This document shows, in pieces, positions 6,423-64,000 of a stretch of DNA of 64,000 nucleotides. Both the position numbers and the translations under genes were made by a program. This DNA is from Eledone cirrhosa (lineage: Eukaryota), in NCBI GenBank assembly GCA_964016885.1, contig OZ024740.1, positions 65,100,001-65,164,000 of the forward strand. Direction: 5' to 3'. Position 1 is the first letter of the stretch; every line of letters begins with the position of its first letter. Under the pieces are notes generated by a model. That model did no database searches. It was given only the letters and a program-made list of their open reading frames with translations, and had not been told where the DNA came from.

Positions 6423-6758
6423 CCAACCTATATATCTACTTCACTTTCTCTCATTTTCTTTCTTTAAATATATATATATGTATATATATATATATCCATC
6501 TTTCTAACTCCGTCTCTCTCCTTTCTTAATCACCCCCATTTCGCCCTCGACTCTCTTCCCGCTCCCTCAAAATTTATGTGACGAGGTGTACCAATATAGG
6601 TATGAAATAACATCCTAAACAGTTAAATGTTTCCATTGCAAAGGTGTATTTGTTGGAGAATGATGTATGTATGTATGTATGTATGTATGTATGTATGTAT
6701 GTATGTATGTATGTATGTATGTATGTATGTATGTATGTATGTATTGATGTGTGTGTAT

Positions 6759-7368
6759 GTCAGGTCACCAGTTGGTGCTACTGGTAACATGTATCCCAGT
6801 ACAACCTGTCTCATGGTCGGGTCGTTGGCGACTAAACTGGCAACCCAACTATGGTTTCTTGGTGAGGAGGGTGACTTTGGTCATCCTGCAGGACTAAAAA
6901 CAAAACCTATCAAAGGCCAAAGGAGCTCTTAAGAGTCAATGGTCATCCAAAATCACCGGGAGAGATGACCCCATAGCTTTTGTCAAGGCATAATTCTAGG
7001 AGAAGGAAAACTCTGATATAACACCTGCAACCCTGATGGTATCCAATGATGTTGAATTGTTCTTCTTTTTGGTAAATATCATCTAGGTTAAGAGAGTGGG
7101 ACTGGCTTTGTGTAGTGCCTTTGCTCACTATAAAAGCTTCACGACACAGGCATTGCTTTATATCTGGAGGTCTCTCTGCATTTGTCGTCACATGGAACCA
7201 TGGGCCCCGCACTATGTGTCAATAATTGTCACAAGTGTAGTGTTTGTACCAGAGTTTTCAAGTCGCTGGCTGGACTAAAAAGTCACACTCGTTCAGCGAA
7301 TCGGTAGGAGTTCTCCTACATGGATATAAAGTAGTGGCCGTACTCGAAAACGAGTTGGCAGCCACCAT
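6759..7368 (+). mobile_element. Non-autonomous RTE-derived retroposon, family B (~610 bp)
   Basis: RTE-type 5'UTR motif CTAGGAGAAGGAAAACTCTGA, a C2H2 remnant (HKCSVCTRVFKSLAGLKSHTRS), 3' stem-loop CTCGAAAACGAG and (TATG)n tail. Near-identical copies at 7507, 53815(-), 59013 and 59660. Confidence 0.88.
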
Positions 7369-7506: not shown

Positions 7507-8035
7507 GCAAGCCCACCAAGGTTTCTTGGTGAGAAGGGTGACTTTGGACATCCTGCAGGACTAAAAACAAAACTTGTCAAAGTGCAAAGGAGCTCTTAAG
7601 AGTCAATGGCCATCCAAAATCACCGGGAGAGATGATCCCTTAGCCTTTGTCAAGGCAGAATTCTAGGAGAAGGAAAACTATGATATAGCACCTACAACCC
7701 TGATGGTATCCAATGATGTTGACGTGTTCTTCTTTTTGGTAAATATCATCTTGGTTAAGAGAGTGGGACTGGCTTTGTGCATTGCCTTTGCTCACCATAA
7801 AAGCTTCACGGCACAGGCATTACTTTATATCTGGAGATCTCTCTGCACTTGTCGTCACAGGGTACAATGGGCCCAGCACTATGTGTCAGTAATTGTCACA
7901 AGTGTAGTGTTTGTACTAGAGTTTTCAAGTCGCTGGCTGGACTAAAAAGTCACACTCGTTCAGCGCATCAGTAGGGGTTCTCCTACTTGGTTATAAAGTA
8001 GTGGCCGTACTCGAAAACGAGTTAGCAGCCACCAT
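7507..8035 (+). mobile_element. Family B copy, 5'-truncated, tandem to previous copy
   Basis: Aligns to 6759-7368 from CCCACCAAGG onward. Confidence 0.88.
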
Positions 8036-8101
8036 GTATGATGTATGTATGTATGTATGTAAAGTCATCGACCTGTTGTCATACTCTCTACTCTGTGATG
8101 A

Positions 8102-9274: not shown

Positions 9275-11345
9275 CCAATTCAATGATGTTCCAGAACAAT
9301 ATAAAAGAGATAATTGGCAATTTAGGTTCTGGAACAAAAAAGATAATTGGCAATAAGGGTCGGGGCCCCAGGTTATCACAGCCTGGGCCCGCTCGTCATC
9401 GTGCCATTGTAATAGAGCCAAACAAGGCATTTAGTCTTGGCTGCTGGAACGTATGGACGCTGCTTGACAGGGATTCCTTGGGGCGTCCTGAACGAAGGAC
9501 CGCTCTTGTTGCAAAGGAGCTTCGACGTTAAGATCTTGACATCGTGGCTTTATCTGAGACGAGGTTAGCTGGAGATGGTCATCTTACGTGGAGAATATAC
9601 ATTCTTCTGGAAAGGAAGCGATGAAGGAACCAGAAGAGAGGCTAGGGTAGGATTTGCTGTTAAGACTGTTCTTGTGAATAAATTAGAAGAATTCCCAGTA
9701 GGGATTAGTGAGAGTCTTATGTCCATGAGAATTCCGCTGGACAAAGGAAGATATGCTACCCTGGTGAGTGTGTATGCTCTAACTATGAATTCTGTCGATG
9801 AAGAAAAAGTGTCCTTTTACCATGCCTTGAAAGGTATTTTAAGAAATATCCCTCAGGCAGACAAAGTCATCGTGCTTGGTGAATTTAATGCTAGAGTGGG
9901 TAGGGATTTTAACACATGGAATGTAATCGGAAGGCATGGGGTGGGCAAGTGTAACAACAATGGTATGCTCCTGCTGCAGATGTGTGAGGAGCTGGATCTC
10001 TGTGATACCAACACCATGTTCCAACAAAAGAACAAATTCAAGACACATGGATGCATCCTGCATCTAAGGAATGGCATCTTTTGGAATACGTCCTAGTCAG
10101 GATGCGTGACAGACAGGATGTGCAGTGTGTTCGTGCTCTTCGTGGAGCTGAGTGCTAGAAAGGCGACTCTGGGGTCGGCGAGACATATGCAGGAGGACAA
10201 AGGTAAAGGTGTACAGGGCATGTGTGCTCTCTTGTCTTCTTTATGCCTGCGAGACCTGGGTCACATATCGACACCACCTTAAGCAATTGGAGCGTTTCCA
10301 TCAGGTGTGTCTCAGACGGATCAATGGCGTTCACTGGAGGCACCACATCAGTGGTGTCGAGATTTTGGAAAGCTCTATGTGTGACAGTATAGAAGCTCTT
10401 GTGCTTAAGCAACGACTCCGTTGGAGTGGTCACCTTGCCAGGATGAAGGATTCTACAATACCAAAACAACTCTTTTATGGAGAGTTGGTTAAAGGAAAAC
10501 GACCGCCACATAAACCAAAAAAAGGTATAAGGATTCCTTGAAAGCCTCTCTGAAAGACGATAACATCTCTGCTGATACATGGGAAAATATTGCTGCTGAT
10601 CGTAATAAATGGAGAAAGACTGTATATGAGGGAAAAGTTGCCTTTGAGGCATCTCGAATCGCATACGTAAAGCGGGATGTGAGGAAGGCCATTGCTGTTG
10701 CACTTCCAGACGGCGAGGGTCCTCCTATGGTGCTGACATGCAGCGTCTGTGCGAGACTCTGCCTAAGCAAAGCTGGACTCGAAAGTCATCTTCGCAGTCA
10801 TAAAGTAAGACCAGTGGTTGACTACCAGGCTGCTGTTGGAGATGCTACTCATCATGCTTGCCAAACATGTGGTAGAGAATGTAAATCAGCAGGAGGGCTC
10901 AAGCGACATGCAAAAGTACACGAACTCCAACCAGAACCGACTATTCCCAGTGAATGTTTTGGTTGCCGACTCTGTGCAAGACATTTTAGATCATTGGCTG
11001 GGCCAAAAACCACATTCGATCGCAGCGCTGTTAGTTGCTATCGTGTGTGTGTCTGTGTATAGATATGTTTATGTGTGTGCGTCTATGTGTATATATATAT
11101 GTATATGTATATTATTATTGTTGTTGTCGTTATTATTATTGTTGTTATTATTACTATTATTATTGTTATTAATGTATATGTGTGTGTGTATATATATGTG
11201 TGTGTATATATGTATATGTATATGTATATGTGTATATATACATATATATTTCTTTTTTTTTCATTTTCTTTTTTATTTATTTATTAATTTTTTTTCTCTC
11301 CTCGTGCAATGGCCATACTCGATAACGAGAGGGCAGCCATCATGC
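8911..11345 (+). mobile_element. RTE-clade LINE with internal deletion of the RT domain
   Basis: 5'UTR 8911-9200; APE motifs CWNVWTL, ALSETRL, VGFAVK, LGEFNARVG, NGMLLL. The reading jumps at ~10156 from RGAEC to the post-RT LERRLW...KVYRACVLSCLLYACETW...RLRWSGHLARM. Three C2H2-like fingers, then 3' end GGCCATACTCGATAACGAGAGGGCAGCCATC + (TATG)n. Confidence 0.9.
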
Positions 11346-24830: not shown

Positions 24831-24856
24831 AATATATATATATATATATATATATA

Positions 24857-30944: not shown

Positions 30945-31106
<162 letters not shown>

Positions 31107-31733: not shown

Positions 31734-31819
<86 letters not shown>

Positions 31820-40275: not shown

Positions 40276-40282
40276 ATATATG

Positions 40283-42220: not shown

Positions 42221-42658
42221 TATATACATACAGGTACACATACATATATGCACGCATCAGTTTAGCGGACGCTTATTATAACGCCCCTTTGTTCGTTTGT
42301 AAACAAACTGAACAGCCTGAATTTATGCCATACGGTGTTAAGGCAACCACGTCACCTTTTTGTTCAACACTGACACAGGAACGATGTACTAGTTTCAAGC
42401 TTGTTAGCTATCATCAGCACCGTATACCCATCTTCCAGATAGTTGAACGTTCGGAAGTATATACTTTCCTTATGAAAATTAACGGCTGAGCAGCCTAATT
42501 TGCATATTGAGTGAGTTAAATCGGTCAGGCATACCGAAAACGATAAGTTGAAAAAAATGAAAACGAAATTTCATTTCTCACTCTTAGTATGGCACTTACT
42601 TAAATGTAAGTATGTATGTATACGTACATACATATATGTATACAGACGTACAGTAGCA

Positions 42659-42732
<74 letters not shown>

Positions 42733-42850
42733 TACATATATACATACAGGTACACATACATATATGCACGCATCAGTTTAGCGGACGCTTATTATAACGC
42801 CGCTTTGTTCGTTTGTAAACAAACTGAACAACTATTTGGCAGATGGGTAT

Positions 42851-42893
42851 ATGGTGCTGATGATAGCTAACAAGCTTGAAACTAGTACATCGT
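42851..42893 (+). ncRNA. Minimal type I hammerhead ribozyme motif
   Basis: ATGGTG-CTGATGA-TAGC TAACAA GCTT-GAAAC-TA-GTA-CATCGT. Confidence 0.78.
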
Positions 42894-43055
42894 CCTGTGT
42901 CAGTGTTGAACAAAAAGGTGACGTGGTTGCCTTAACACCGTATGGGATAAATTCAGGCTGTTCAGTTTGTTTCCAAACGAAGAAAGCGGCGTTATAATAA
43001 GCGTCCGCTAAACTGATGCGTGCATATTTGTATGTGTACCTGTATGTATATATGC

Positions 43056-43188
<133 letters not shown>

Positions 43189-43423
43189 TGCTACTGTACG
43201 TCTGTATACATATATGTATGTACGTATACATACATACTTACATTTAAGTAAGTGCCATACTAAGAGTGAGAAATGAAATTTCGTCTTCATTTTTTTCAAC
43301 ATATCGTTTTCGGTATGCCTGACCGATTTAACTCACTCAATATGCAAATTAGGCTGCTCAGCCGTTAATTTTCATAAGGAAAGTATATACTTTCGAACGT
43401 TCAACTATCTGGCAGATGGGTAT

Positions 43424-43466
43424 ACGGTGCTGATGATAGCTCACAAGCTTGAAACTAGTACATCGT
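43424..43466 (+). ncRNA. Minimal type I hammerhead ribozyme motif
   Basis: ACGGTG-CTGATGA-TAGC TCACAA GCTT-GAAAC-TA-GTA-CATCGT; 6-bp stem I, palindromic ACTAGT. Confidence 0.8.
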
Positions 43467-43616
43467 TCCTGTGTCAGTGTTGAACAAAAAGGTGACGTGG
43501 TTGCCTTAACACCGTATGGCATAAATTCAGGCTGTTCAGTTTGTTTACAAACGAACAAAGCGGCGTTATAATAAGCGTCCGCTAAACTGATGCGTGCATA
43601 TATGTATGTGTACCTG

Positions 43617-43846: not shown

Positions 43847-44559
43847 TATATATATATACATATAAATATACATATATATATATATACATATGCATATATA
43901 TATATGTAGATGTTATATTTAATTTGTTGGGATACAACAAGCAAATATTTTTATAGCTGATATAAAGCGCTCAACAAATTATTGGAGTAAAATTACAATA
44001 TATTAACAAATGGAAACTTTATTTGTAAAACCACATTTATTTCATTATACATATTTCAAGTACAACAAAGCAATTCTTTAAGGGTATGTCAATATTTGTT
44101 TATAAAACTGATCTATATTATATTTCATCTGATGGAAGCGCACCATAATTTGCTTTGGTGTCCTTGAAATATGTATAATGAAATAATTATGGTTTTATAA
44201 ATATAGTTTGCATTTGTTAATATATTGTGTATATATATATAATTATATATATATATATTTATTAAAATAACAGATTAAAGTTTAAGCAAAGAATCGCTGC
44301 TTTCACCTTTAACGGGATTTTCTGAAACTAACAAAGTAAATCTGCGAACGCAGAAGTGAATATTTAAAAAAACGTTGCAACCGGAGGAAGACAGGAAGAC
44401 GATACTTTGGTTCGTGGAAACGTTCCCTGGCAAAGAACGGGAAAAAACGAATATAATACGTCATTATATATAAATACACTATATATATATGTATTTACAT
44501 ATTTAAATACACACACATATACATATATATATACATATATGTTGCCAATAAATATATAT

Positions 44560-45708: not shown

Positions 45709-45807
45709 ATAGGAACGAGTTGGACCCTGACGGCTGAGCTCAAGCCGTTTCGACGGCTAATTAGCCGTCGAAACGGCTTGAGCTCAGCCATCGGGGTCTT
45801 ACTCGTT

Positions 45808-45812
<5 letters not shown>
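45709..45812. repeat. Near-perfect palindrome (58-bp perfect core)
   Basis: GGCTGAGCTCAAGCCGTTTCGACGGCTAA|TTAGCCGTCGAAACGGCTTGAGCTCAGCC, centre 45760/45761. A related hairpin lies at 56570-56650. Confidence 0.9.
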
Positions 45813-45865: not shown

Positions 45866-45869
<4 letters not shown>

Positions 45870-46097
45870 GCAGTACTAGTTGTAGATGTTATCGAGATAC
45901 GAGTGACATAATAATTATTTCAACAGCAGAAATTAGAGATGAAATATACGTTTATTTTTTGATGTAGCACAAACAATGGTGTGGTACAGAGGCTGGTTTC
46001 TGGCGTGTGTTCAGTCGGCTTTTCAGTGGCTGTCTGTCTTTTCTTGCTGGCGTTCCTAACCGGCGTTCTATCAAGGAGCGTGAGGCGTCTTACTACA
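45866..46097 (-). repeat. 3' LTR
   Basis: Direct repeat of 51101-51332; minus strand begins TGTAGTAAG. Confidence 0.95.
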
Positions 46098-46325
46098 GTA
46101 CCTCGAGCCAGATTTTGAAATTATCGAAAATCGATGTCATTACTCACATGTGGAGTAAGATGGCGAACAATGCAACAAGGGGGAGCTATCCGCTCTAGCA
46201 AAAATTGAATCCAGAATAAGGATTTGAAAAATGTTAAAAAAAAAAAAACGACATGCATGCATAACAAAACAAGGCAAAGAAAAAGCAGAAACACAGAGGC
46301 AAAAAAAAGGTGCAGCTAACATAGT

Positions 46326-49300
46326 CTAAATATAGACGGTGCTGCAACATTTTCTGGGCCAGTGGACCCTACGACCTGAACGGGTCGTGGTCTTGTAACG
46401 TGGCGATGGTGGTGGTGTAGGGACAGGCGATGATGGTGGTTCAGGAACAGTCGTTCGCTCAACAGGCAAATACGAAGGGGTTCGTGGATCAGGAACCACA
46501 GCGTCCGTGTCAAGGTGCGCCTGCTTAAGCCTGTCTAATGTAACTGTCTCCCGGGACCCCTTAATATCTAACGTGAAATGCTTAGCCGAGCGCGCTAAGA
46601 CACGGTAAGGTCCAGTGTAAGGCTGTGTGAGCGGGGGCTTCACCGTATCATTCCTTACAAAGACATGCGTCCACGAGGCAATATCCCTCGGGACAGCAGT
46701 CTTGACAGTTTGCTTCCTAGTGTCCATTGGCGGCAAATCCTGGAAATAGGAGCGCAAACGGGACACGTAGGAAGCGTGATCTTGGGCATCAAGATCGATA
46801 GGGGCAAGCATTTGCACGGGCAACGTCAGAGGGGCACCGTACATTACTTCGGCCGGTGAAAATCCAAAGTCGACCACCGTTGACCGAATCCCTAGTAGCA
46901 CAATAGGGAGGTACTCGCTCCAATGCGCCGAGTCCATTGAGGCCATTAAGGAGGCCTCCAGTTGGCGGTGAAAACGCTCCACCATACCATTCGAAGCGGG
47001 ATGGTATGTCGTAGTTCTAATGCGTTTAGCACCAATTAATTTTGACAGCTCGAGGAAAAGGCTCGACTCGAACTGTCGTCCACGGTCGGTAGTTATTGTG
47101 GATGGAACTCCATAACGAGAGATCCATCCAGACACAAGAGCACGTGCTGTTGTCTCCGCGGTGATGTTTTTCAAGGGGATGGCCTCAGGCCATCTCGAAA
47201 AATGGTCAATGACGGTAAGTAGATAAGAAAAACCATCGCTGACAGGCCAAGGTCCCACTATGTCAATATGAATATGCGAAAAACGCGCATCTGGGTTAGC
47301 AAAGGTACCCAGGGGAGCCTTGACGTGTCGATGAACCTTTGATCTCTGGCAAGCGACGCAGGAATGGCACCAAGCAGCAATTTCACGCCTCATATTTGGC
47401 CAGAAATATCTAGCTGATATGAGCTTTGCTGTGGCAGAAGATCCTGGATGCGAGATACAATGTAATCCCAGAAACACGGTCCGACGATGATTCTCTGGAA
47501 CGAAGGGCCTAGGCACGTCCAAAGAGACGTCGCAGAGAATTTGGCAAACTGCAGTCGACAGAGGCAAGTATTTCATCTCGCAATTCGCAAACTCGGGCGA
47601 TGTGACATCCAATGACTCAAGGGGAGGCTGATCCGCAGCCAAACGAGTCAGATCTATGTCAGAGGATGACGAGATCGCTGTCACGGGTAAGCGGGACAAA
47701 GCATCGGCCGCTGTATTTAGTGAACCGGGAATGTGCTGGATATCACTCGTATATTGCGAGATGAAATCAAGCTGTCTCGTCTCTCTGGGCGAGTATTTAT
47801 CAGCCTTCGCTCTCAAAGCAAAAGTCAATGGTTTATGGTCAGTGAGGATAATAAATTGTCTACCCTCTAGCACATGTGAAAAATAGATGGCTAAAAGCTC
47901 TCTTCCAAAGGTGCTGTAGCGCGTCTCAGCAGGATTTAGCTTTTTGGAAAAAAACTCCAGCGGTTGCTGGTGACCATTGATGTTTTGCTGTAGTACTGCG
48001 CCCACAGCGATATCCGATGCATCAACACAAAGCGTTAGCTTTGCACCGGGTACCGGGTGAGTCAGTAACGAAGCATTAGCCAAAACAGTTTTGGCGTGCT
48101 GAAAATCAGCAAGTTGAGTGTCTGTCAAAGAAATATCTTTGTTCTTCCTCTGACAATTTTTCAAAATTTCTGTCAGGGAGAAAAGCAATTTTGCACAATT
48201 TGGCACGAAATGCCTATAAAAGTTAACCAGACCTAAGAACTAGCGTAACTGACGTAGTGAGGTCGGTGGAGGCAAATCCTCTATGACCTTAACTCGCTCA
48301 GGCCGGGGTCGAATACCGTCAGCATCGATGACGTGACCCAAGAAAGTCACTGACTCAGCACCAAAAACACATTTGGGTGCATTAAGCTGCACGTTATACG
48401 CCTTCAATCGGCGGAAAAGAAGATTCAAATGGTGCGTATGCTGCTCTGGAGAAGAACTAGCAATGAGCAGATCGGCAATATAGGTATAGACGAAAGCGAG
48501 GCCGCGAGTAACCTCATCCATAAACCGCTGAAAAGTACTAGCGGCATTCCTTAATCCGAACGGCATAGTCAAAAACTCGAAAGACCCAAATGGCGTAACT
48601 ATAGCCGTTTTTGGAATGTCATTTTTATGGACAGGAATTTGATGGTACGCACGAATTAAATCCAGTTTGGAGAATATCTTGCATCCCTGCAACGAAAACG
48701 CAAAGTCTTGCAGATGAGGGATAGGATAACGGTCCGGTACCGTTATCGAATTCAGGTGTCGATAATCTCCAGTAGTTCTCCAATCGCCATTCGCTTTCGG
48801 TACCATGTGTAATGGGGACGCCCACGGGCTCGTGGACGGACGAATAATCCCCATTTGCAGCATATGATCAAACTCTGATCGTGCTGCTTTGAGTTTGTCC
48901 GGAGGCAAGCGACGAGGACGAGAGAAAACGGGAGCACCAGTCGTAGATATGAAGTGCTCCGTGGTATGAGTAGGTTCATCAAATCGAAAATTCCCCTGTG
49001 TCAGTTGCGGGAATGAGTTCAACAACGCATGGAAAGGATCACCGGTGTTAGCAAGAAAAAATGTCGGGCTAACCGTTGGAACTCCTGCTGCCTTGCCAAC
49101 AACAGTTAATCCCGTGATGCCATCAATTAGGCGTTTACCACGAAGGTCCACCGTCAATGAAAAATGGTGGAGAAAATCCGCGCCTAGAATCGGATACGGC
49201 AAGGCAGCGACAGTAAATATCCATTTAAACTCGCGCCGCAGATTACGAAACTGCAAAGGTAACGAGATTTGTCCGAAAGTTCGTCTAAGGGGGAGTCTCC

Positions 49301-49427
49301 TTCATACAACACACAGGCCATACGGAACAAGCTGCACCTGTGTCAACCAGAAAAGCTCTACCTGACAGCAGGTCCTCAATGAAAAAGTGGCGGTTAGATG
49401 TTGTTTCGCAGAGCGCACTATCCGCCG
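46326..49427 (-). pseudogene. pol: Gypsy pol (protease, RT, RNase H, integrase), disrupted
   Basis: Protease [39 protein letters not shown], with catalytic YIDD changed to YIAD and a stop at 48240. RNase [18 protein letters not shown]. Integrase HxxxH...CxxC, DIVGP, TDRGRQF, NGMVER. Confidence 0.93.
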
Positions 49428-50206
49428 TTAGTGACTCTGGTCGTCTTTTCCCTCGTAAGCACAAGGAGGCCTACAACGGGCGGCTTTTTTACCATATCTT
49501 TCATGGTAATAACAATATGGTGTTCCTGGTGTGTTGGAAGGGCTACGGTGGCGAGAAGTTGAATAACGTCGTGAGCGGCTCCTCTGCCGTCCAAAGGACC
49601 CGAATTCCGTGCACAACTCCGCCATTTGACGAGTCATGGCTTCCATAGTGGTGATTAATTTGTCATCAGACGCTGATGAGCGTGATTAAGGAAGAGAAGA
49701 GGAAGCAACGTACTTTGGCTTCGAAGTGTCTCTCTTCGTCACCTCTACAATTTTGTCAGCAGAGACAGCAATGTGATCCAGGGTATTCACCTCTAGCATA
49801 TGGGCTAGGATCGCCTGTACCTCTTGAGGTAGGCGAGAGAAGAACAATTGCTTCAGGAAAGGGCTATCCTGATCTTGGGAATCGCTCAAATCCCGCAAAT
49901 ACCGGAGAAAAGCGGTAGGGGTCCTGTCACCTAATCGTTCGTCCTCGATCAGTGACCGAAAACGACTCTCTACCGACTTATAATTCCTCCTCAAAATCTC
50001 GCCCTTCAAAAACTCATACGTCAAGTCAGAGGGGGAGGGGGTCTGTAATTAGGTCTTGGACCGAATCTGCTAGATTAGGGGGAGGGCCGCATCAGTACAG
50101 CGAGGCGCTGGTCAGATTCGGTCTTACAGACCGTAAAATACGCCTGTAACTGGGCAAACCACATCTTAGGTTTTCCAGTAAAGGCGGGCAAATGTGGTAC
50201 ATTCAT
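49428..50206 (-). pseudogene. gag: Gypsy gag, frameshifted
   Basis: LPAF..KPKMWFAQL, LGDRTPTAFLRYL, LFFSRLPQEVQAIL and knuckle CYYHERYGKKAARCRPPC. Confidence 0.85.
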
Positions 50207-51100
50207 GTCAACTTTTAAAATTAAAACAAATATATATACCTATATATCTAAAGAGCAATTAATGTACCCTTGTACAGTAAAAAGAGAACAGCCTATATTG
50301 AGAAAATGTTAAAGGGCAAAAAGAAACAGACATTCAAAACATAAGGAAATATGCAAAATACATAAAATACAGATATATATCTTTTAAAAAAAAAATTTTC
50401 TTTCAACGTCTGTCCCCTCGCGTTGCTTCAACGAACCAGCCAAATCAAATAAGGTAAAAAAGAGGGAGAAAAAAATTTAAAAAAAAAAAAAATATATATA
50501 TATCCGCGTTGGATACCAACAAAGGTAGCCAGTGGCTAAAAATCCCTTAGAAAAAGGTAAGGCATGTATATCCCCATGCGGGGCAGTTATGTTCACAAAA
50601 AAAGTTTAGTCTCTTCTCTCTTGATCAGTCATGGAACACACACGCAATTCAAAAAATGTGTCCGTTTCAAAACTGGGAAGGAACGCAACGCCACCTTGGA
50701 AAAATACACTTTTTTCTTTTTTCTTCTGTAAGTTGCGAAAAAGTTGGCAACGGAAATGGAATATTCAAGTGAATGAAAAAAAATTGCTCTAAATTATCGA
50801 CTCGAATGAATCGTTTTGATATTTCCGATGTGTGGTGGTTTGCGTCGGTAAGGCTATGAAGCTGCCACTCACTATTCCCTGTTTTGGTCAGTGGTTAAAC
50901 AATGTTGTCGCTGCTGCTGCTGTCGTTGTTGTTGTCGAGTGTAGCAAAAAGTTTTTTGAAATACTACTAATTTTTCGATAATTTTAAAAGGAATATTTTT
51001 TATTTTCGCAAGTTGCGAAAATAAAGGCCGGCAATGTGGCAATAAAAGTTCAACTGAATGAAAACGAAGGGCTGCGTTAATTTCTTACGTCGGTCACTAC

Positions 51101-51332
51101 TTTAGCAGTACTAGTTATAGATGTTATCGAGATACGAGTGACATAATAATCATTTCAACAGCAGAAATTAGAGATGAAATATACGTTTATTTTTTGATGT
51201 AGCACAAACAATGGTGTGGTACAGAGGCTGGTTTCTGGCGTGTGTTCAGTCGGCTTTTCAGTGGCTGTCTGTCTTTTCTTGCTGGCGTTCCAAACCGGCG
51301 TTCTATCAAGGAGCGTGAGGCGTCTTACTACA
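51101..51332 (-). repeat. 5' LTR
   Basis: Direct repeat of 45866-46097, followed on the minus strand by the PBS-like sequence. Confidence 0.95.
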
Positions 51333-51352: not shown

Positions 51353-52342
51353 TATAAGGAGTTGACGGACCCAGCATATTTATTAATGCCAGGACCGGTT
51401 GTATCAATGGGCAATGTAAGATACATTCCCAGAGTATACACAGTTATTTGCTTCAATACAACACACATAAAACGGGTGCCTATAATAGTTCCCGGACTCG
51501 AGTTTCGGCCGCACTTAATGCAGCAGTAAGGTGCTCTGTACCATCCGTCTGCATATATTATGCAACAATCGGCTTATGCGGCTTCCTCAGCTGGTATCGC
51601 CTAATCAATAACCAATCGATCGACAGCCATGCCGGTCATGTCTGTTTGTGACAACCGACACGGTAAAGTGATTAGCAACTGGAACCCGATACAACTCTGT
51701 CCCTCAACTAGCCACCGATTTACAAATTTTATGAGGTGGTGGGTGATTAAGAAACCATATTTTCGTTCCAATCAAAAGCCCTAAGCCAACGTGTCTCACA
51801 CACAAATTATTAAGAGATGAAAGGATGGTTATTAGAAATAGCAAACCACAACGTTGTATGCATTCGGCTCATGTCTCCAAGTCCCATGGCTAGAGGAAAG
51901 CGATAGTAATAATGGTAGAGCGAAGAACCTTTAACGGACTTTAAATGCGATATAGTAGCGAGCTGAAATGTGGCAGCCGCGTGCGTAAAAACCAGTCTAT
52001 TTCACAACTTAAAAGAGTGAGTGATAAAATTAATAGCAGGAAAATAGAGCGCATATCATTCAAAACAATAAAAGAGTGAAAAATTGTTTAACTTACTCTC
52101 ATTAGTCCGCTAGTTGGGAGATAATAGTAATAAGGAGTTGACGGACCCAGCGTATTTATTAATGCCAGGACCGATCGTAGCTCAGAGTACTCACTGGGTA
52201 ATGTAAGATACATTCCCAGAGTATTCACCTAGTTATTCGCTTCAATACAACACACGTAAAAATGGGTGCCTATAATAGTTCCCGAAATCGAGTTTCGGTC
52301 GCACTAAATGCAGCAGTAAGGTGCACTGCACCATCCGTCTGC

Positions 52343-52345
<3 letters not shown>
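51353..52345. repeat. ~200-bp direct repeat pair (51353-51556, 52130-52345) with a half-hammerhead on the minus strand
   Basis: Minus GCTGCA TTAAG TGCGGC-C-GAAAC-TCGA-GTC; no recognisable CTGANGA upstream. Confidence 0.75.
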
Positions 52346-52383
<38 letters not shown>

Positions 52384-52386
<3 letters not shown>

Positions 52387-53800
52387 CCACACCCCTCTAC
52401 CAACAACAAGTTTCCACCACCTTCCAACACCTTGTCTCCTCCTCCCTCCTCCCCCCACCGCTTCCCACCTCATCGTCCGCACCCTCCGCACCCCCACCAT
52501 CTACTTCCTCCCCAAACTCCACAAACCCGACAACCCCGGCCGCCCCATCGTCTCCGCTTGCAACTGCCCCACCGCACTCATCTCCGCCTTTCTTGACTCC
52601 ATCCTCGCCCCCCTTGTCACCATCCTCCCCTCCCACATCTCCGACACCAACCACGCCCTGCGCGTTTTCGACTCCTTCACCTACGCACCCGGCTCACAGC
52701 CCTTCCTTTTCACCCTAGACATCAAGTCCCTCTATACCGTCATCCCCAACGCCGGCGGCCTACGCGCCCGCAAACACTACCTCGACCTTCGCCCCTCCCC
52801 CATCCCCTCCACCTCCACCCTCCTTTGCCTCGCCCAGCTGGTGCTCACCCTCAACTGTTTCTCCTTCTCGGGTGAGTTTTACCAACAGGTCACAGGGGTA
52901 GCCATGGGTAAAAGAATGGGCCCAAACTATGCCAACCTTTTTGTTAGCCATGTTGAGGCCCAAATCTTTGCCCAGTACACCGGCCCCACGCCCGAACTGT
53001 ACGGTCGTTACATCGACGACTGTATCGGAACCACGACCCTCACCCGAGAACAGCTCGACTCCTTTCTCTCCTTCTTCTGCTCCTTCCACCACTCCATCCA
53101 CTTCACCACCTCTATCTCCACCACTCACGTCCACTTCTTAGACATCTCAGTCGCCTTCGACCCCTCCCACCACTCCCTCGTCACATCCGCCTTCTTCAAA
53201 CCCACCGACTCCCACTCCTACCTCGACTTCACCTCTTCCCACCCCACACACACTAAACACTCTATTCCCTACTCCCAACTCCTCAGGATCCGCCGCCTCT
53301 GTAGCCGAGATGCTGACTTTGAGTCCCAGGCCCTTTCCCTAGTCAGCCATTTCATCCGCAGAGGTCCCCCCTCTCGTCCCCACCGCTCTCACCCGCGCCA
53401 GTGCTGTCCACCGCTCCACCACCCTCACCCCACCCCACGCCACCACACATCCACCCACCGTCTCCCCTTCCTCACCACCTACGACCCCTCCACCATACCC
53501 ATCCACCGCACCATCCTCCGCTTCTTCCGACGCCTCCAGTCCGACCCCTCCACCTCCCACATCTTCCCAGCCCCACCACTCCCCTCCTTCAAACGCGCAC
53601 GCAATCTCCGCACCATCCTCGTCCACAGCTTCCTACCCCCCAACCCACGCTCTCTTCCTCCCACCCCCCTGGTTACTTTCCCTGTTCTAGGCCCCGCTGC
53701 AACACCTGTCCCCACATCACCAACACCACCACTTTCCAGGGTCCCAACGGCCACTCTCTCTCTGACCGGCATGCCTTCCGCTGCACCTCCTCCAACCTAG
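52384..53800 (+). mobile_element. Penelope-like retroelement RT region (Neptune-like), strongly C-rich, truncated at both ends
   Basis: YFLPKLHKPDNPGRPIVS, DIKSLYTVIP, GVAMGKRMGPNYANLF, RYIDD, FLDI, KPTDSHSYL, SQLLRIRRLCS; in a shifted frame the linker CSRPRCNTC...CTSSNLV. Confidence 0.93.
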
Positions 53801-53814
53801 TGTCTGGACTTGGC

Positions 53815-54355
53815 TGCGCTGAATGAGTGTGACTTTTTAGGCCAGCCAACGACTTGAAAACTCTGGTACAAATGCTACACTTGTGACAATTATTGACACA
53901 TAGTGCTGGGCCCATGGTACCATGTGATGGCTATTGCAGAGAGATCTCCAGATATAAAGCAATGCCTGTGCCGTGAAGCTTTTATAGTGAGCAAAGGCAC
54001 TGCACAAAGCCAGTCCCACTCTCTTAACCAAGATGATATTTACCAAAAAGAAGAACAAGTCAACATCAATGGATACCATAAGGGTTGCAGGTGTTATATC
54101 AGAGTTTTCCTTCTCCTAGAATTCTGCCTTGACAAAGGCTAAGGAGTCGTCTCTCCCGGTGATTTGGGATGGCCATTGACTATTAAGAGCTCCTTTGCCC
54201 TTTGACAGGTTTTGTTTTAGTCCTGCAGGATGTCCAAAGTCACCCTCCTCACTAAGAAACCTTGGAGGGTTTGCCAGTTTAGTCGCCAACGACCCGACCA
54301 TGGGACAGGTTGTACTGGGATACATGTTACCAGTAGCACCAACTGGTGACCTGAC
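53815..54355 (-). mobile_element. Family B copy lacking its 3' end
   Basis: Reverse complement of 6759-~7300; abuts the truncated PLE tail-to-tail. Confidence 0.88.
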
Positions 54356-55476
54356 ATATATATATATATATATTTGAGGGGGATGAGGTATGCCGTAGCT
54401 GATGATATGCAAAATACACTCGGGCTAGTCATCTCCAGATTTATCTAGACGGTAAAAGGGTCTGGTCCGCGTTTGACACAATGGTGGGTGGAAACCCCAA
54501 CTTGCCGTTCTATAGAAGCTTAGTGGCGGGAAAAACGACGACGTTTTTGAGTATACTCTAGGTATCGATGAAAATAATCAAGCTATTCTTTTCCGGAGGA
54601 CTTTCGGAGTAGGGCCCATGCATTATTTTCAGAAATCCAGAGCCTGACAGTGCCCCCGGAGAGCATTATCAGTTTAAGATAAACTCTATATGCATGGAAG
54701 TCCTGTCAGCCGGGCCTATTCGAGATGCACGTAAGGCGACGAAACTCTTTCGCACGCACTCGTGGTATGTCCGAGTATTGCTGACTTGTGGTTTTATGCC
54801 GAATATCTGCTTAAGCATGTAGAACGGTACTAATTATCAACTGAGTCCCGCCGCCTTGCTTAAGAGGGGGAGGACATGCAGCTTTTATTTGCCTTGTAGC
54901 CATGGTAAAATACGTCATGTGGTGCATGCATTTGGATGTGTTGAAGTCAATCACCTCCTTCATCGGCGAAGCCCTGATTAACTTATTCAGGCCTCAATTT
55001 CAGAGAAAGCGAAATACTACCTAACAACCAGTTTGTTGAGAGTGATATGAATAGTCAGGGTGAATGCTCCTGATCTGGGTAGGCGCCTGCAAATGCGTCA
55101 GCCGAAGGGAGACTCTTGCCGTAGCGATCAGGGTGACCGTGGCTTTTGTCGGCTTTCTCCACGATCAACCCTTGGGATCTCCTCACTTCAGGGTAAATTT
55201 GTTATGTTTGAATTTTTAAATAAATATTTGTTTACATTTTGTTATAGAGATTTTTACTCTCCAAAACAATCCCCATTATACCGACCTGTGGCGTCTTTAT
55301 TCTCTGCTTAATGATAGCCCTCTGCTGCTATATAAAGAAATCATAATTCCATTATTTTATCATATGCAACATTCTCATCATGAAAATATTCAAAATAAAC
55401 ATTATACCACTAATACTACTACTTCTACCACTGTTGCTGTTACTATTAATACTATTTCTACCACTACAACTATTAC

Positions 55477-55885
55477 TGGCAATATCGTTAGAGGGTAGGG
55501 CACCATGCTTTGTCGCATAGAGTTACGGCCCTTTACAGTCTGAATTCAAATCCCACCGAGGTTAACTTTGCTTTTCATCTTTACGGAGTCGATAAAATAA
55601 AGTACCAGTAACGTACTGGGTTCGCTTTAATCGACTTTCCCCTCCCACCAGAATTACTGGCTTTGTGCCTGTACTAGAAATCATTATAGAATGTTGGACA
55701 ACATGCTTTCCCACATTGAGGTACGTCCCTTTGTGTATGGATTTCAAATTCTGCCGCGATTAGCTTTGCCTTATATCCTTACGGGTTCGATGAAATAAAA
55801 TATCATTGATGCACTGGGATCGATTTAATCGACTTTTCCCTCCTACAAAGATTGCTAGCTTTGTACATAAATCAGAACACATTAT
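55477..55885 (+). mobile_element. Two tRNA-derived SINE copies
   Basis: Core and tail motifs at ~55477-55688 and ~55690-55885. Confidence 0.8.
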
Positions 55886-58397: not shown

Positions 58398-58676
58398 CGT
58401 TACGCAATGAAACATTCCCAGCACCGTTATGTAACTACCCTTGCAAACAAGACCTGGCAACTGAGGGAAAGTAACCATCAATACACCCTGAAGTGGAAAA
58501 AATTATCAAACGCGCCCCCATATCGGAGTGGTATGAGAAGCTGTCGATTATGCGCCCTTGAGCTGTTCCACATCTTAAGTTCGAAGAATAGGTTACTCAA
58601 CAATAAAATTGAGAGATCAATTTATTGTAACCATAGACTCAAAGAGAAATTTTCGCACTACAAATCGAACACTTAA
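58390..58676 (+). mobile_element. Naiad-type PLE C-terminal fragment (GIY-YIG end + Cys/His motif)
   Basis: TTLANKTWQLRE..YTLKWKKL..APPY....CRLCALELFHI....LLN....YCNH. Confidence 0.75.
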
Positions 58677-58901
58677 CCTCTTACTACCAACTGACAAACT
58701 GCATATACTTAGACTTTATACCCTCTTATATCTAGACCCTTTAATTACCCACAAAACCAATACATATATCCCCCCCTTCTCCCTCATTCCTCTTCTATTT
58801 CTTCGTTTTCTTCCTTCCTCCCCCTTTCTTGGCTATCTTTTCTTTTCTTCCTTCTCACCCCCTTCTTTGCTTTTATTTTTGTCATTATTATCTTTATTTT
58901 T

Positions 58902-58966
<65 letters not shown>

Positions 58967-59012
58967 ATATGTGTGTGTGTGTGTGTGTATATGTATGTAT
59001 GTATGTATATAT

Positions 59013-59619
59013 GTCAGGTCACCAGTTGGTGCTACTGGTAACATGTATCCCAGTACAACCTGTCTCATGGTCGGGTCGTTGGCGACTAAACTGGCAACCC
59101 CACCAAGGTTTCTTGGTGAGGAGGGTGACTTTGGACATCCTGCAGGACTAAAAACAAAACCTGTCAAAGGGCAAAGGAGCTCTTAAGAGTCAATGGCCAT
59201 CCAAAATCACCGGGAGAGATGACCCCTTAGCCTTTGTCAAGGCAGAATTCTAAGAGAAGGAAAACTCTGATATAGCACCTGCAGCCCTGATGGTATCCAA
59301 TGATGTTGACTTGTTCTTCTTTTTGGTAAATACCATCTTGGTCAAGAGAGTGGGACTGGCTTTGTGCGGTGCCTTTGCTCACTATAAGAGCTTCACGGCA
59401 CAGGCATTGCTTTGTATCTGGAGATCTCTCTGCACTTGTCGTCACATGGTACCATGTGCCCAGCACTATGTGTCAGTAATTGTCACAAGTGTAGTGTTTG
59501 TACCAGAGTTTTCGAGTCGCTGGCTGGACTGGGGAGTCACACTCGTTCAGCGCATCGGTGGGGGTTCTACATGGATGTAGGGTGGTGGCCGTGCTCGAGA
59601 GCGAGTTGGCGGCCGCCAT
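59013..59619 (+). mobile_element. Family B copy with A-to-G hypermutated 3' part
   Basis: Full-length copy; compare directly with the adjacent copy 59660-60267. Confidence 0.9.
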
Positions 59620-59659
59620 ATATGTGTGTATGTATGTATGTATGTATGTATGTATATAT

Positions 59660-60267
59660 GTCAGGTCACCAGTTGGTGCTACTGGTAACATGTATCCCAG
59701 TACAACCTGTCTCATGGTCGGGTCGTTGGCGACTAAACTGGCAACCCCACCAAGGTTTCTTGGTGAGGAGGGTGACTTTGGACATCCTGCAGGACTAAAA
59801 ACAAAACCTGTCAAAGGGCAAAGGAGCTCTTAAGAGTCAATGGCCATCCAAAATCACTGGGAGAGATGACCCCTTAGCCTTTGTCAAGGCAGAATTCTAG
59901 GAGGAGGAAAACTCTGATATAACACCTGCAAACCTGATGGTATCCAATGATGTTGACTTGTTCTTCTTTTTGGTAAATATCATCTTGGTTAAGAGAGTGT
60001 GACTGGCTTTGTGCAGTGCCTTTGCTCACTATAAAAGCTTCACGGCACAGGCATGGCTTTATATCTGGAGATCTCTCTGCACTTGCCGTCACATAGTACC
60101 ATGGGCCCAGCACTGTGTCAATAATTGTCACAAGTGTAGTGTTAGTACCAGAGTTTTCAAGTCGCTGGCTGGACTAAAAATTCACACTTGTTCAGCGCAT
60201 CGGTAGGGGTTCTCCTACATAGATATAAAGTAGTGGCCGTACTCGAAAACGAGTTGGCAGCCACCAT
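59660..60267 (+). mobile_element. Family B copy, tandem to previous copy
   Basis: Full-length, separated from the previous copy by (TATG)n. Confidence 0.9.
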
Positions 60268-60272
60268 GTATG

Positions 60273-60329
<57 letters not shown>

Positions 60330-61042
60330 ATATATGTGTGTATATATATGTATGTGTATGTATGTGTGTACATATATATATATATATTTATCTCTTTATA
60401 TCTCCCCACCCCTCTATCTCTCTCCCTCTCTATCCATCCCCCCCCACTATTATCTATTTAATTCTCTTTAACTCACTACACTCCACGACATGATGTCTGC
60501 TATCAAAACTGACCAAAGAATCCTTCCACCTCTACCCCTACCTCCACCTCAGTTTGTCATTCTACTTCCTACCTCTTCCCCCTTCCTCTCTCTCTATACT
60601 ATGCCGTGTGTCCCCTCACCTCCTGATTCCTCTCTCTCTATACTAGTAAATACAATTCCAAATAAATGTTTTTCTCTATATATTAAGAATTATTTCAAGA
60701 GTAACTCACTATTTTGAAAATTTGGACTGTGAACAACAATTATTTTCGAGTGGCTGCTATTTGCAGTATAGCAATATAAGGTTGCACTTACCAATTAAAC
60801 GGTCGTAAATACCTGGATTAAATCCTTCTCTTAATGCTTACCTGTGTTTTCTCTTTTATACTTTATACTCCAAGATTGAACGGAATTCTCACCAACTTGT
60901 GGAGTTACCCCTAACCGTACGTTGAAACCATCCATGAAACTGGCTTTCTTAACCAAAAACTGGATCACAATAAGCAATTTTTTGCTTCTCTAACTACAGG
61001 CTCCTTATCGGTCGAGCAACCACCTAAACATACGGTACTACT

Positions 61043-61790
61043 ATGGAAAAGCATTACATAGGTATGTCCCTAAAGAACATTCCTATATCTCGGAGAAAGG
61101 ATTATACTCTCGGGATGATACAGCGAACAAACGACTTTATACGCAGAGTTAGATGGAAAACTTTCCATTTCGACAAAGGACGTAATGGTCGCACCGTGGA
61201 ATATAACAAGGAAACATAGGGCTTCAAATCGTGTAAAAACTTACCTACCAACCCTCAACTGGATGCCTTTGAACAGGACTTACTGAAGATGATTATGAAT
61301 ATCAAATTCAAAAAGCGGAGGAATAATAAACTCCAGAATGACATAAATACATTCATAAAAAAGCTGTGAACCACCAATGGAATTATTGTCAAAGCGGACA
61401 AAACATCAAATGTGTATACGATGAATGTTAATACATACAATAGCTCCATACGGAAAGAATTACATAGGAAATACAAAAAAACAAATGAGGCGGCACTGAT
61501 AAACATCAACAAAGAGGCACACAATATAGTCAAACACCTAGGAATAGACGACAGAACGGAGCCACTTAAGCCATGTACCCCCACATTTAACCTCAAAGAC
61601 CACAAGGTAAATTTTGATTATAACCCCACTATTAGACTTATATGCCCATCCAAATCGGACATCGGGAAAATTAGTAAACATATATTAGACAGAGTGATAG
61701 CACAAATGAAGAATAAACTAGTGATTAAACTATGGGGTAACGCTACCGAAACAATTAAATGCTTTAACAATATAGCTAACAAAGAAGTAT
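61043..61790 (+). pseudogene. Naiad-type PLE N-terminal ORF fragment
   Basis: MSLKNIP...FIRRVRWKTFHF...FEQDLLKMI..IKF...IIVKADKTSNVY...LKDHKVNFDYNPTIRLICPSKSDIGKISKHIL; two in-frame stops; ends before the RT core. Confidence 0.8.
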
Positions 61791-62452
61791 CTAACAATTG
61801 TTTGCTTGATAATTTATATAGCTTCGTTAAATTTACAATATTCTGAAAACATTCTCAATGTTGAACATTTCTGAATCCACAAATTATTCTAATCTCACAA
61901 CTTAAAATGTCAACATCCTTCGTACCTCATATTTTTATATATAACAAATCAATACATACGCAATTTATTAATATATATAGATATATTTATATATATATAT
62001 ATATAACCTATCCTAATGTAATAAGATAAAAATACCTACAACCATAAGTCTTCATATACTCTATATACAATATTATAACTCATAATATAGGTTACAAATG
62101 TCCTCCCAAATTAACGTTATTCCTTTCTCTTTTTCTTTCTCTTCCTTCCTTATCATAATTATTTTAATTTTCCATAGCGTCTAAAATAACGTCTTTTCAG
62201 CCCTTTAATATAAACATAAGTTGCATACTCATATTAATAATTTTAAATATCTGACTTTTCTTCTGTCTTCCCTTCACTTTCCAGGGATAATTTGAACCGT
62301 TAAGGTATATTATCTTTGGTCATCTCAAATATTTATATAACATGTTTTATTTTAATTGATGATAGCGTACCAACATTTTGGTACCCTTGAAATATATATA
62401 ATAGAATAAATATGGTTTTATAAATATAGTTTCCATTTATTTAATATCATTG

Positions 62453-62516
<64 letters not shown>

Positions 62517-62794
62517 TACATATTAGGCTTTCACTCTTTTACCATACGGCTGAGGCTATATCTTTATATATATATAAGCATATACATACATATAAATGTG
62601 TACATAATTTGCTAATGATAGAATTAACTTAATAATTAATCAATTAGTCAGAGCGGTATAAAATCATAAATAGGTAATGTAAATTATTGAAATTGCTGTC
62701 GGAACCAAAATAGTAATTGAGATAATACTTTTACTATATCTATTTATGATTTATGACGTTCTAAATAATTGATTCATTATTTAGTTAATTCATT

Positions 62795-63170
62795 TCAAGG
62801 CCAACAATTACCCAGTGCATTACTGTTACTTTATTTTATCGATGCCGTAAGGATGAAAGGCAAAGTTAACGTCGGCGGGATTTGAACACATAATTTCAAA
62901 GGCCGTAATTCTTTGCGTCAAATAATGGCGTCCGATCCTCTGCAGATACTGCCAATATATATATATAATAATGGTTACTCATATAGGCACAAGGCCAGCA
63001 ATTTTGGGGGTGGGGAAAGTCGATTAAATCGACCCCAGTGCGTGATTGGTACTTTATTTCATCGACCCCGTAAGGATGAAAGGCAAAGTTAACCACGGCG
63101 GGATTTGAACTCAGCCGTAACTCTTTGCTGAAAAGCATGGCGTCCAACCCTTTACCGATACAGCCAATAC
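62795..63170 (-). mobile_element. Two tRNA-derived SINE copies
   Basis: Reverse-complement core at ~62795-62955 and ~62966-63170. Confidence 0.85.
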
Positions 63171-64000
63171 ACCGAATAATAATAAAATGGATAAGGTCTT
63201 AAATGTTCATTACAATGATTTAGGACTGATGCGTACCACAATTATTTGTTTTATAATCCCTACATTTGAGTGACAAGGGCTAAAACGGGATTCTGTTTCT
63301 AGTAATCCCGTTATTTATCAATCGCCTACGTCTTGCTTCCATTCTTGTGAACTGCATGCCTCGTAATAGTTTTCCCTTTCGAAAACTTCACTGGTAGCGG
63401 TCACTAGAATTGTTCTCTTGTTGTCAGAAGGTTCCCAGAAGAGACGTCTTCTCGCGGCTGATATATTAACTTATTAGAATATCCAGACTAGTCTTCAGGG
63501 TGAAAGTGCAGTCGGAACCTAAAAGTAATTAAGTAATTGTTATAAAAATATATCAGCACTACCACTCTTCTCCGTCTGGCTGAGGGGGGGGGGGGGGGGG
63601 CAACCACCTTGCTTCTGCTGGAAACCACCAGAGAGCGTTAGCCCCAACGTTTTGTATAGCTACAGCTTTCTAAATGTTTACCTGTAAACATACCCTATTT
63701 CTTTAGAAATACCAAATTCTAATACATATCTGTAGACAACTATGCATGAAGCAAAATCCTAATTCTATGCTACTATAAGTTGAGCCATCTTAAGCAACTT
63801 CATATGTAAATGAGATTAATTACCTCATTTACGCAGATGAGAAAACCATATATTTTCGATTGTTTTCAAGTCCAGCAGTCGCAAGTGTGTGAGGCGTCGT
63901 CTTGATGAGTACCAGTGAAGTTTTAAATGCATCAACGATTGTCCCCCTTGCTTCTGCTGGACACCACCAGGGGGCGTATATAATATATATATATGTATAT

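What the first reader, a model, noticed from the sequence alone, without database searches (positions are those of the whole stretch)
59270..59619. Retroposon copy with an ADAR-like A-to-G hyper-editing signature fixed in genomic DNA
Seen: against its sister copies (6759, 7507, 59660), this copy has 15 A>G changes between 59514 and 59615 and no other substitution type there, plus one 3-nt deletion. Examples: GGACTAAAAAGTC>GGACTGGGGAGTC and GGATATAAAGTAGTGGCCGTACTCGAAAACGAGTTGGCAGCCACCAT>GGATGTAGGGTGGTGGCCGTGCTCGAGAGCGAGTTGGCGGCCGCCAT. About 4 further private A>G changes lie upstream. All are on the element's sense strand. None of the changed As has a 5' G, while the GA adenosines in the stretch (ggAct, ggAt, cgA, cgAg) are untouched. 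Known: ADAR disfavours a 5' G, inosine is reverse-transcribed as G, and coleoid cephalopods have very high A-to-I editing. Inference: a hyper-edited transcript was retrotransposed, so RNA editing became heritable DNA change. An antisense copy at 53815-54355 shows how dsRNA substrate could form.
Basis: partly seen in the sequence, partly recalled or inferred. Interest (0 to 1): 0.85.

Follow-up and report, generated by a model that had tools for sequence, protein, structure and literature searches.

The report
RNA-edited retroposon copy written into DNA
One copy of a jumping repeat in what is probably an octopus genome carries a dense cluster of A-to-G changes in the pattern of the RNA-editing enzyme ADAR, most likely because an edited RNA was copied back into the chromosome, which would turn temporary RNA edits into inherited DNA.

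Summary
Observation confirmed. Copy 59012-59619 has G at 15 of 29 adenosines in 59514-59615 and no other substitution there. Overall 19 of its 23 private changes are A>G, against 2 of 64 in four sisters. An older related family has A, so the direction is A>G. An RTE 5'-UTR domain and a C2H2 remnant fix + as the sense strand of a non-autonomous RTE-type retroposon. The 5' neighbours (T 5/7, A 7/10, C 3/8, G 0/4) follow ADAR's published order, with modest statistics (p 0.01-0.04). G-type contigs lie in a public run, possibly the assembly's own sample; none of about 28,000 family reads from another individual carries the haplotype. So it is probably neither an artefact nor a subfamily, but 'fixed' is unproven. 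The antisense copy at 53815 cannot be the partner: it misses 10 of the 15 sites. Best reading: an ADAR hyper-edited RNA was reverse-transcribed into the germline (0.74). Precedents are avian retroviruses; this scan also noted an LTR case on other DNA (e1-8036428). I found no report for a non-LTR element. It is one copy, with no genome-wide test.

The parts
59012..59619 (+). Edited copy (Q) of a roughly 610-nt non-autonomous RTE-type retroposon
59514..59615 (+). Dense A>G cluster: 15 of 29 adenosines, no other substitution, 3-nt deletion after 59566
59275..59476 (+). Six sparse upstream A>G (4 private, 2 shared with copy 7507); 59414 and 59476 are common family alleles; also two private T>C (59333, 59343) and one G>T (59457)
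59249..59271 (+). Conserved RTE 5'-UTR domain: 22 of 23 nt here, 23 of 23 in sister 6995-7017, identical to the RTE-derived part of OegopSINE in direct orientation
   Evidence: (supplement of PMC5786205), compared by eye
59345..59405 (+). Second segment resembling an RTE 5' region (RTE-1_MD 411-501 in the same supplement)
   Evidence: compared by eye
59484..59555 (+). Remnant C2H2 zinc finger, read as the C-terminal end of the parent LINE's ORF
   Evidence: (sisters: PF00096 E 3e-5 and 3.5e-4, below the curated cut-off)
59582..59619 (+). 3'-terminal stem-loop, kept after the changes (-27.5 kcal/mol read as G, against -14.8 in sister 6758)
59620..59658 (+). (TATG)n tail or target microsatellite between Q and the next copy
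59659..60267 (+). Tandem unedited sister copy; first 199 nt identical to Q
6758..7368 (+). Full-length unedited sister copy
7507..8036 (+). 5'-truncated unedited sister copy (starts at element position 83)
53815..54356 (-). Inverted sister copy, element positions 1-541 only; lacks the 3' stem-loop and tail
11305..11345 (+). 3' end of an older related family used as outgroup (also 12054-12094 and 24795-24835); A at the positions matching 59593, 59601, 59611 and 59615

Best explanation
The element is an internally deleted, non-autonomous RTE-clade retroposon: RTE 5'-UTR, C-terminal zinc-finger remnant, 3' stem-loop and (TATG)n tail. It inserts into TATG/TA microsatellites, often beside older copies (anatomy shown; mobilisation by an RTE enzyme inferred). 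A source copy elsewhere was transcribed in the germline or early embryo, and its 3' 100-350 nt paired with a complementary strand, most simply an inverted 5'-truncated copy in the same transcript (inferred; partner not found). ADAR deaminated about half of the adenosines in the paired stretch (inferred from type, strand, density and neighbours). The heavily edited duplex opened, the 3' stem-loop was still usable, and reverse transcriptase put C opposite each inosine, so the new copy, or at least its 3' part, has G (inferred from established chemistry). The copy is probably a passenger with no function, and may be polymorphic in the species.
For: Single substitution type, density and clustering. 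A is ancestral in 3 of 3 sisters that cover the whole cluster and in three outgroup ends. + is the sense strand on separate markers. 5'-truncated copies preceded by TATG/TA repeats occur in the window and as loose ends in runs X1 and X7. 5' neighbours T 5/7, A 7/10, C 3/8, G 0/4 (T/A against C/G p 0.025) match U=A>C>G (PMC3113232). 3' neighbours A 7/10, G 4/8, C 3/7, T 1/4 fit the invertebrate hyper-editing motif of A downstream (PMC5625713); not tested statistically. Changes rise towards the 3' end: 0/74, 6/57, 15/29 (p 5e-9), as expected for pairing with a 5'-truncated inverted copy. X1 contigs at 90% likeness or more cover 59575-59622 (bin depths 367, 175, 39, 11.6) with no G>A row listed beyond 59563. 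Young repeats are the main ADAR targets in animals (PMC9989829), and squid repeat editing is not confined to nerves (PMC9068888).
Against: One copy only; no genome held, so no genome-wide strand test. No duplex partner for the last 65 nt lies in the window. In the element's own predicted fold 12 of 15 changed adenosines are unpaired, against 6 of 14 unchanged (p 0.06; p 0.54 among 5'-T/A sites), so the element's own hairpins are not the ADAR substrate and an unseen partner must be assumed. Neighbour statistics are weak. No RNA evidence. X1 and X2 are one sample, of unrecorded kind, possibly the assembly's source; X1 holds only 0.55 of the 33 sampled words, X2 has no depth past 59600, and no listed piece spans the stretch. 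The autonomous partner LINE was not found.
Confidence: 0.74

Rival explanations
1. The RNA was edited and retrotransposed, but by a deaminase that prefers loops or single strands (tRNA-deaminase type, as recalled for fungal and bacterial mRNA editing), acting on the element's own fold rather than on a long duplex.
For: 12 of 15 changed adenosines are unpaired in the predicted fold, among them 6 of 8 in two A4 tetraloops; no inverted partner in the window.
Against: The pairing bias is not significant (p 0.06) and vanishes after control for the 5' base. The 5' order fits ADAR, with A as good as U. I know of no such mRNA-editing activity in animals (recalled).
Confidence: 0.08
2. DNA-level process: adenines deaminated in the + DNA strand of an RNA:DNA hybrid, or dG put opposite T during second-strand synthesis under low dATP.
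For: Both give + strand A>G; four consecutive adenosines are changed (59531-59534).
Against: Deamination of the first-strand cDNA would give T>C, the wrong strand. A slippage-type misincorporation would favour a 3' G, which is not enriched (4/8), and would not avoid a 5' G. A density of 52% is typical of RNA hyper-editing, and repair should remove hypoxanthine from DNA (established knowledge, not tested).
Confidence: 0.08
3. Sequencing or assembly artefact, for example polishing or gap filling with RNA reads.
For: No raw reads of the locus were seen; word shares are only 0.55, 0.42 and 0.39; the kind of X1-X3 is not on record; systematic clustered base-call errors have entered assemblies before, though as G>A (PMC2873906).
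Against: Contigs of X1 (1,428 million letters, so most likely genomic; inferred) carry the G letters to the 3' end, and X2 to about 59600. No other repeat pair in the window shows such a run. An enzyme-like neighbour order is not expected of a base-calling error.
Confidence: 0.06
4. An ordinary G-rich subfamily, or chance mutation.
For: Some upstream G alleles (59414, 59476) are common in the family. Depths of 175 (X1) and 73 (X2) at 59588-59600 hint at more than one G-type copy.
Against: In X21 about 28,000 reads start at 59478 and are long enough to cover the cluster; 24,448 stop matching at 59568 with an A-type loose end (agreement 0.98) and depth is 0 past 59588. The spectrum is not balanced (p 2e-13) and the outgroup has A.
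Confidence: 0.03

Closest known systems
ADAR-linked A-to-G hyper-editing in avian retroviruses RAV-1 and avian leukosis virus (Felder 1994; Hajjar and Linial 1995; seen only as cited in PMC8586724)
   Same: Clustered sense-strand A>G passed from RNA to DNA by reverse transcriptase
   Different: Those are exogenous retroviruses; this is a non-viral, non-LTR, non-autonomous element in an assembled invertebrate genome
APOBEC DNA editing of LTR retrotransposons (PMC4866542)
   Same: A deaminase cluster preserved in a genomic retroelement copy and found by comparing sisters
   Different: G>A from cDNA deamination, LTR elements, vertebrates; that screen selected G>A over A>G and reported invertebrates devoid of that signal
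A-to-I hyper-editing of repeat RNA across animals (PMC5625713, PMC9989829, PMC9068888)
   Same: Type, density, 5'-G depletion, A preferred downstream, young repeat as target
   Different: Those edits are in RNA only; here they are in the DNA sequence
Bipartite non-autonomous RTE LINEs and RTE-derived SINEs, including Ceph-SINEs (PMC5786205)
   Same: RTE 5'-UTR domain in direct orientation, LINE-like 3' end, microsatellite tail
   Different: No tRNA head found, so not a Ceph-SINE; four other motifs of this element were absent from that supplement; family name and partner LINE unknown

Membership tests
ADAR hyper-editing signature | Dense cluster of A>G only, polarised from ancestral A | tested here: met
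   15 of 29 adenosines, no other type; sisters and outgroup have A
ADAR hyper-editing signature | On the strand that is the RNA intermediate | tested here: met
   + is sense by RTE 5'-UTR matches and C2H2 frame; A>G 19 against T>C 2
ADAR hyper-editing signature | 5' neighbour order U=A>C>G with G depleted | tested here: met
   T 5/7, A 7/10, C 3/8, G 0/4; p 0.042 in the cluster, 0.014 over 59270-59619; small numbers
ADAR hyper-editing signature | Edited stretch lies in long double-stranded RNA | tested here: inconclusive
   No partner in the window for the last 65 nt; own fold leaves 12 of 15 sites unpaired; source locus unknown
ADAR hyper-editing signature | Same sites edited in RNA, dependent on ADAR | not testable with these tools
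   Needs stranded raw RNA reads of the family and an ADAR perturbation
Genomic (heritable) edit | G alleles present in genomic reads | tested here: inconclusive
   Present in X1 contigs, in part in X2; one sample, kind not on record, no raw reads of the locus
Genomic (heritable) edit | Fixed in the species | tested here: inconclusive
   Absent from X21 reads of another individual; reduced representation, so absence is not proof
Bipartite non-autonomous RTE LINE | RTE 5'-UTR sequence | tested here: met
   23-nt identity with the RTE-derived domain and a second RTE-like segment, by eye
Bipartite non-autonomous RTE LINE | 3' end shared with an autonomous RTE | tested here: inconclusive
   C2H2 remnant resembles the C-terminus of an RTE-like ORF at 10514-11059 (E 4e-6; RTE label recalled; C2H2 fingers are generic); no partner found
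Bipartite non-autonomous RTE LINE | Microsatellite tail and 5' truncation | tested here: met
   (TATG)n tails; truncated copies in the window and in loose ends
Bipartite non-autonomous RTE LINE | Target-site duplication | tested here: inconclusive
   Both flanks are microsatellite; cannot be read
Ceph-SINE (tRNA head, CORE, RTE 5' part) | tRNA-derived head | tested here: not met
   ARAGORN 0 genes; Rfam no hit at gathering score and no tRNA among 11 weak hits on copy 6758; a decayed head could be missed

The most novel reading that the evidence does not exclude
ADAR editing is a recurrent, strand-specific germline mutagen of non-LTR retroposons in this lineage: many copies carry 3'-biased A>G clusters, some edited alleles spread through source elements (common family A>G alleles at 59414, 59468, 59476 and 59488, no T>C allele at 4% or more), and the genome holds a datable fossil record of germline RNA editing.
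Probability: 0.35. Interest if true: 0.85.

Novelty: new variant of a known kind. Interest (0 to 1): 0.63.

Why it matters
It shows a route by which A-to-I edits, normally confined to RNA, become inherited DNA change without a virus. The published genome screen I read for deaminase scars in retroelements looked for G>A in LTR elements and found invertebrates empty (PMC4866542). A sense-strand A>G screen of non-LTR copies in animals rich in editing is cheap, and would measure germline ADAR activity, its motif and its share of repeat divergence. It would also test whether ADAR restricts retroposons by editing or merely marks them. For now it is one copy with no sign of function.

Tried and rejected
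No whole genome is held, so the genome-wide test was impossible. Pattern scans of metagenome contigs and viral contigs found 0 copies. X7 (kind unknown) had no depth past 59575; not used either way. Rfam: nothing at gathering score; 11 weak hits on copy 6758, among them no ribozyme or tRNA. A search for the autonomous partner with the zinc-finger remnant found 1 candidate and none significant (weak evidence). Pfam on 97 non-repetitive ORFs found no host exon, only the element's C2H2 remnant and one weak KRTAP7 hit. The antisense copy 53815-54356 was rejected as the duplex partner because its coverage is opposite to the gradient of changes. The element's own hairpins were rejected as the substrate. 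Inverted repeats in 58400-64000 are microsatellite only among the 25 shown of 646. The idea that G is ancestral was rejected. Literature searches for a prior report in non-LTR elements listed none by title or abstract start; the library lacks most subscription papers, and bioRxiv supplements were closed.

Full report
Observation. The window holds five copies of a roughly 610-nt repeat: 59012-59619 (Q), 59659-60267, 6758-7368, 7507-8036 (5'-truncated) and 53815-54356 on the minus strand (3'-truncated). Against the majority of its sisters Q has 15 A>G changes in 59514-59615, no other substitution there, and a 3-nt deletion after 59566. Upstream it has four private A>G, two A>G shared with copy 7507, two T>C, one G>A and one G>T. 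So 19 of 23 private substitutions are A>G, against 2 of 64 in the four sisters (p 2e-13; tail and junction positions dropped, a recount gives 66). A>G outnumbers T>C 19 to 2 (p 1e-4), and none of 200,000 random placements reached more than 13 changes in 102 nt. Among 168 repeat alignments of 60 nt or more in the window, the 164 without Q's 3' part have same-type runs of at most 6; the four with it have 11, 11, 10 and 5. Three 3' ends of an older related family have A at the positions matching 59593, 59601, 59611 and 59615, so G is derived.

What the element is. No tRNA or Rfam family was found. A 23-nt stretch (6995-7017; 22 of 23 in Q at 59249-59271) is identical to the RTE 5'-UTR domain of OegopSINE, aligned in direct orientation to RTE LINEs in the supplement of PMC5786205, and 59345-59405 resembles RTE-1_MD 411-501 there (compared by eye; I read passages of the main text and part 3 of 15 of the supplement). 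The 3' third keeps a C2H2 zinc-finger frame on the + strand (Pfam PF00096, E 3e-5 and 3.5e-4 in two sisters, below the curated cut-off), similar to the C-terminus of an RTE-like ORF at 10514-11059 (E 4e-6; the RTE label is recalled). It ends in a stem-loop (z -2.95) and a (TATG)n tail. 5'-truncated copies preceded by TATG/TA repeats appear in the window and as loose ends in two runs. Microsatellite tails are typical of RTE-related retroposons (PMC6007223, abstract). I read it as a bipartite non-autonomous RTE LINE with + as the sense strand; the partner LINE was not found. The best hit of a Penelope-type RT in the window is from Octopus sinensis (76%, next 57%), which suggests but does not prove an octopod host.

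Enzyme signature. In the cluster, adenosines are changed after T in 5 of 7 cases, after A in 7 of 10, after C in 3 of 8 and after G in 0 of 4. This follows the ADAR order U=A>C>G (PMC3113232, passages). Downstream, A 7/10, G 4/8, C 3/7 and T 1/4 fit the invertebrate hyper-editing motif, with G depleted upstream and A preferred downstream (PMC5625713, passages). The numbers are small: p 0.042 for 5'-G avoidance in the cluster, 0.014 over 59270-59619. Changes rise along the element from 0 of 74 adenosines (59012-59269) to 6 of 57 and 15 of 29 (p 5e-9).

Substrate. The antisense copy covers element positions 1-541. It would pair perfectly with the unedited 5' part but misses 10 of the 15 sites, and no other inverted match to the last 65 nt lies in the window apart from a weak 34-nt hit of the older family at 40280-40313. 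In the element's own fold 12 of 15 changed adenosines are unpaired, against 6 of 14 unchanged (p 0.06; 0.54 after control for the 5' base). ADAR needs duplex, so the substrate was probably a long duplex at the unknown source locus. An inverted 5'-truncated copy in the same transcript would pair with the 3' end only, which matches the gradient. That editing depends mainly on intramolecular duplexes is reported in PMC13445718 (abstract); a preprint seen only in a search listing (10.64898/2026.03.25.714158) argues for intermolecular duplexes, so either is possible. The loop bias keeps a loop-preferring deaminase alive as a minor rival.

Is it in real DNA, and how common? Three runs of one sample hold 0.55, 0.42 and 0.39 of 33 sampled words of 59250-59622. 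That alone is weak, because half of the 31-mers there differ from the family at one site or none. Laid at 90% likeness or more, X1 has depth 367, 175, 39 and 11.6 in the four bins from 59575 to 59622, and X2 has 316, 73, 0 and 0, with no G>A difference listed beyond 59563; unedited pieces cannot reach 90% there. So read-derived contigs carry the G letters. The sample may be the assembly's source, its kind is not on record, and no listed piece spans the stretch. In X21, RAD reads of another individual, about 28,000 molecules start at the AATT site at 59478; 24,448 stop matching at 59568 with an A-type loose end and depth is 0 past 59588. The G haplotype is therefore no common subfamily. Q itself would give a fragment of about 310 nt from 59478 to the PstI/SbfI site at 59786. 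If that was the second enzyme (inferred, not on record), this individual probably lacks Q, so 'fixed' is unproven. Q's other divergence is low (4 of 608, against 10 of 610 to 20 of 612 in sisters), consistent with a young copy.

Mechanism and odds. Shown: anatomy, strand, direction, spectrum, neighbours, presence in contigs, rarity. Inferred: germline transcription of a source copy, duplex over its 3' end, ADAR deamination, reverse transcription with C opposite inosine, and insertion into a TATG microsatellite beside an older copy. I give this 0.74; a loop-preferring deaminase 0.08; DNA-level deamination or second-strand error 0.08; artefact 0.06; ordinary subfamily 0.03. Whether the whole copy or only its 3' part came from the edited RNA is open: Q and its tandem neighbour are identical over the first 199 nt (chance about 7e-4 from the rest), which suggests local conversion or a chimeric origin.

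Relation to what is known. ADAR-linked A>G hyper-editing is reported for avian retroviruses (Felder 1994; Hajjar and Linial 1995; seen only as cited in PMC8586724, passages). This scan noted a one-LTR case in an endogenous retrovirus on other DNA (e1-8036428; not checked beyond that precedent). APOBEC scars in genomic LTR elements are established; that screen kept G>A over A>G and found invertebrates empty (PMC4866542, passages). Young repeats are the main ADAR targets (PMC9989829, passages), and squid repeats are edited beyond the nervous system (PMC9068888, passages). Eight searches listed no report of ADAR clusters in genomic non-LTR copies; most subscription papers are outside the library, so this is not proof of absence. 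I class it as a new variant of a known kind.

Verdict. Real, well polarised, on the right strand, and best explained by an edited RNA written back into the genome. It rests on one copy, without raw reads, RNA data or a genome-wide control, and has no sign of function. Interest 0.63; 0.85 if the genome-wide pattern holds (probability 0.35).

Noticed in passing
59012-59210 and 59659-59857: The two tandem copies are identical over their first 199 nt although they differ at 15 non-edit sites in the remaining 409 (chance about 7e-4): local gene conversion or chimeric origin.
   Followed up: partly
59388-59621: Two TAG>TGG changes (59560, 59584) remove the stop codons of the zinc-finger remnant, so Q has an open 78-codon frame where sisters stop; no sign that it is used.
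   Followed up: partly
59250-59563: Family variants at 4% or more are mostly CpG decay, plus A>G at 59468 and 59488 and common non-A letters at 59414 and 59476; no T>C row. A hint of recurrent editing in source elements, confounded by subfamilies.
   Followed up: partly
59588-59600: G-type depth of 175 (X1) and 73 (X2) here, against 11.6 and 0 at the very end, hints at further partly edited copies; summed contig depth is no copy number.
   Followed up: no
52202-54356: The inverted copy abuts a Penelope-type RT/GIY-YIG frame at 53815; both are cut at the junction.
   Followed up: no
8908-11345: An RTE-like LINE remnant (about 9250-11050) seems nested in a copy of the older related family; further copies at 11747-12090, 24486-24835 and 40282-40513 (minus). 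A 170-nt element at 11505-11674 shares the young family's 5' end.
   Followed up: partly
45867-51331: Gypsy-type LTR retrotransposon with 230-nt terminal repeats 98.7% identical (45867-46096, 51102-51331) and RT and integrase-like frames on the minus strand.
   Followed up: no
30310-32762: Three tandem 625-nt copies (94-96% alike) with an inverted 250-nt partial copy at 32513-32762.
   Followed up: no
24859-26654, 42249-43600, 24048-24265, 44004-44219, 636-917, 45712-45809: Long inverted repeats and palindromic elements (fold-back or MITE-like), up to 98.5% alike: possible dsRNA sources and useful controls without an RNA intermediate.
   Followed up: no
1701-1893, 5376-5883, 13010-13552, 15031-15261, 20803-20969, 22193-22377, 34484-34688, 55478-55877, 62796-63151: An abundant SINE-like family of about 190 nt in both orientations; no same-type mismatch run above 6 in its pairs.
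   Followed up: partly
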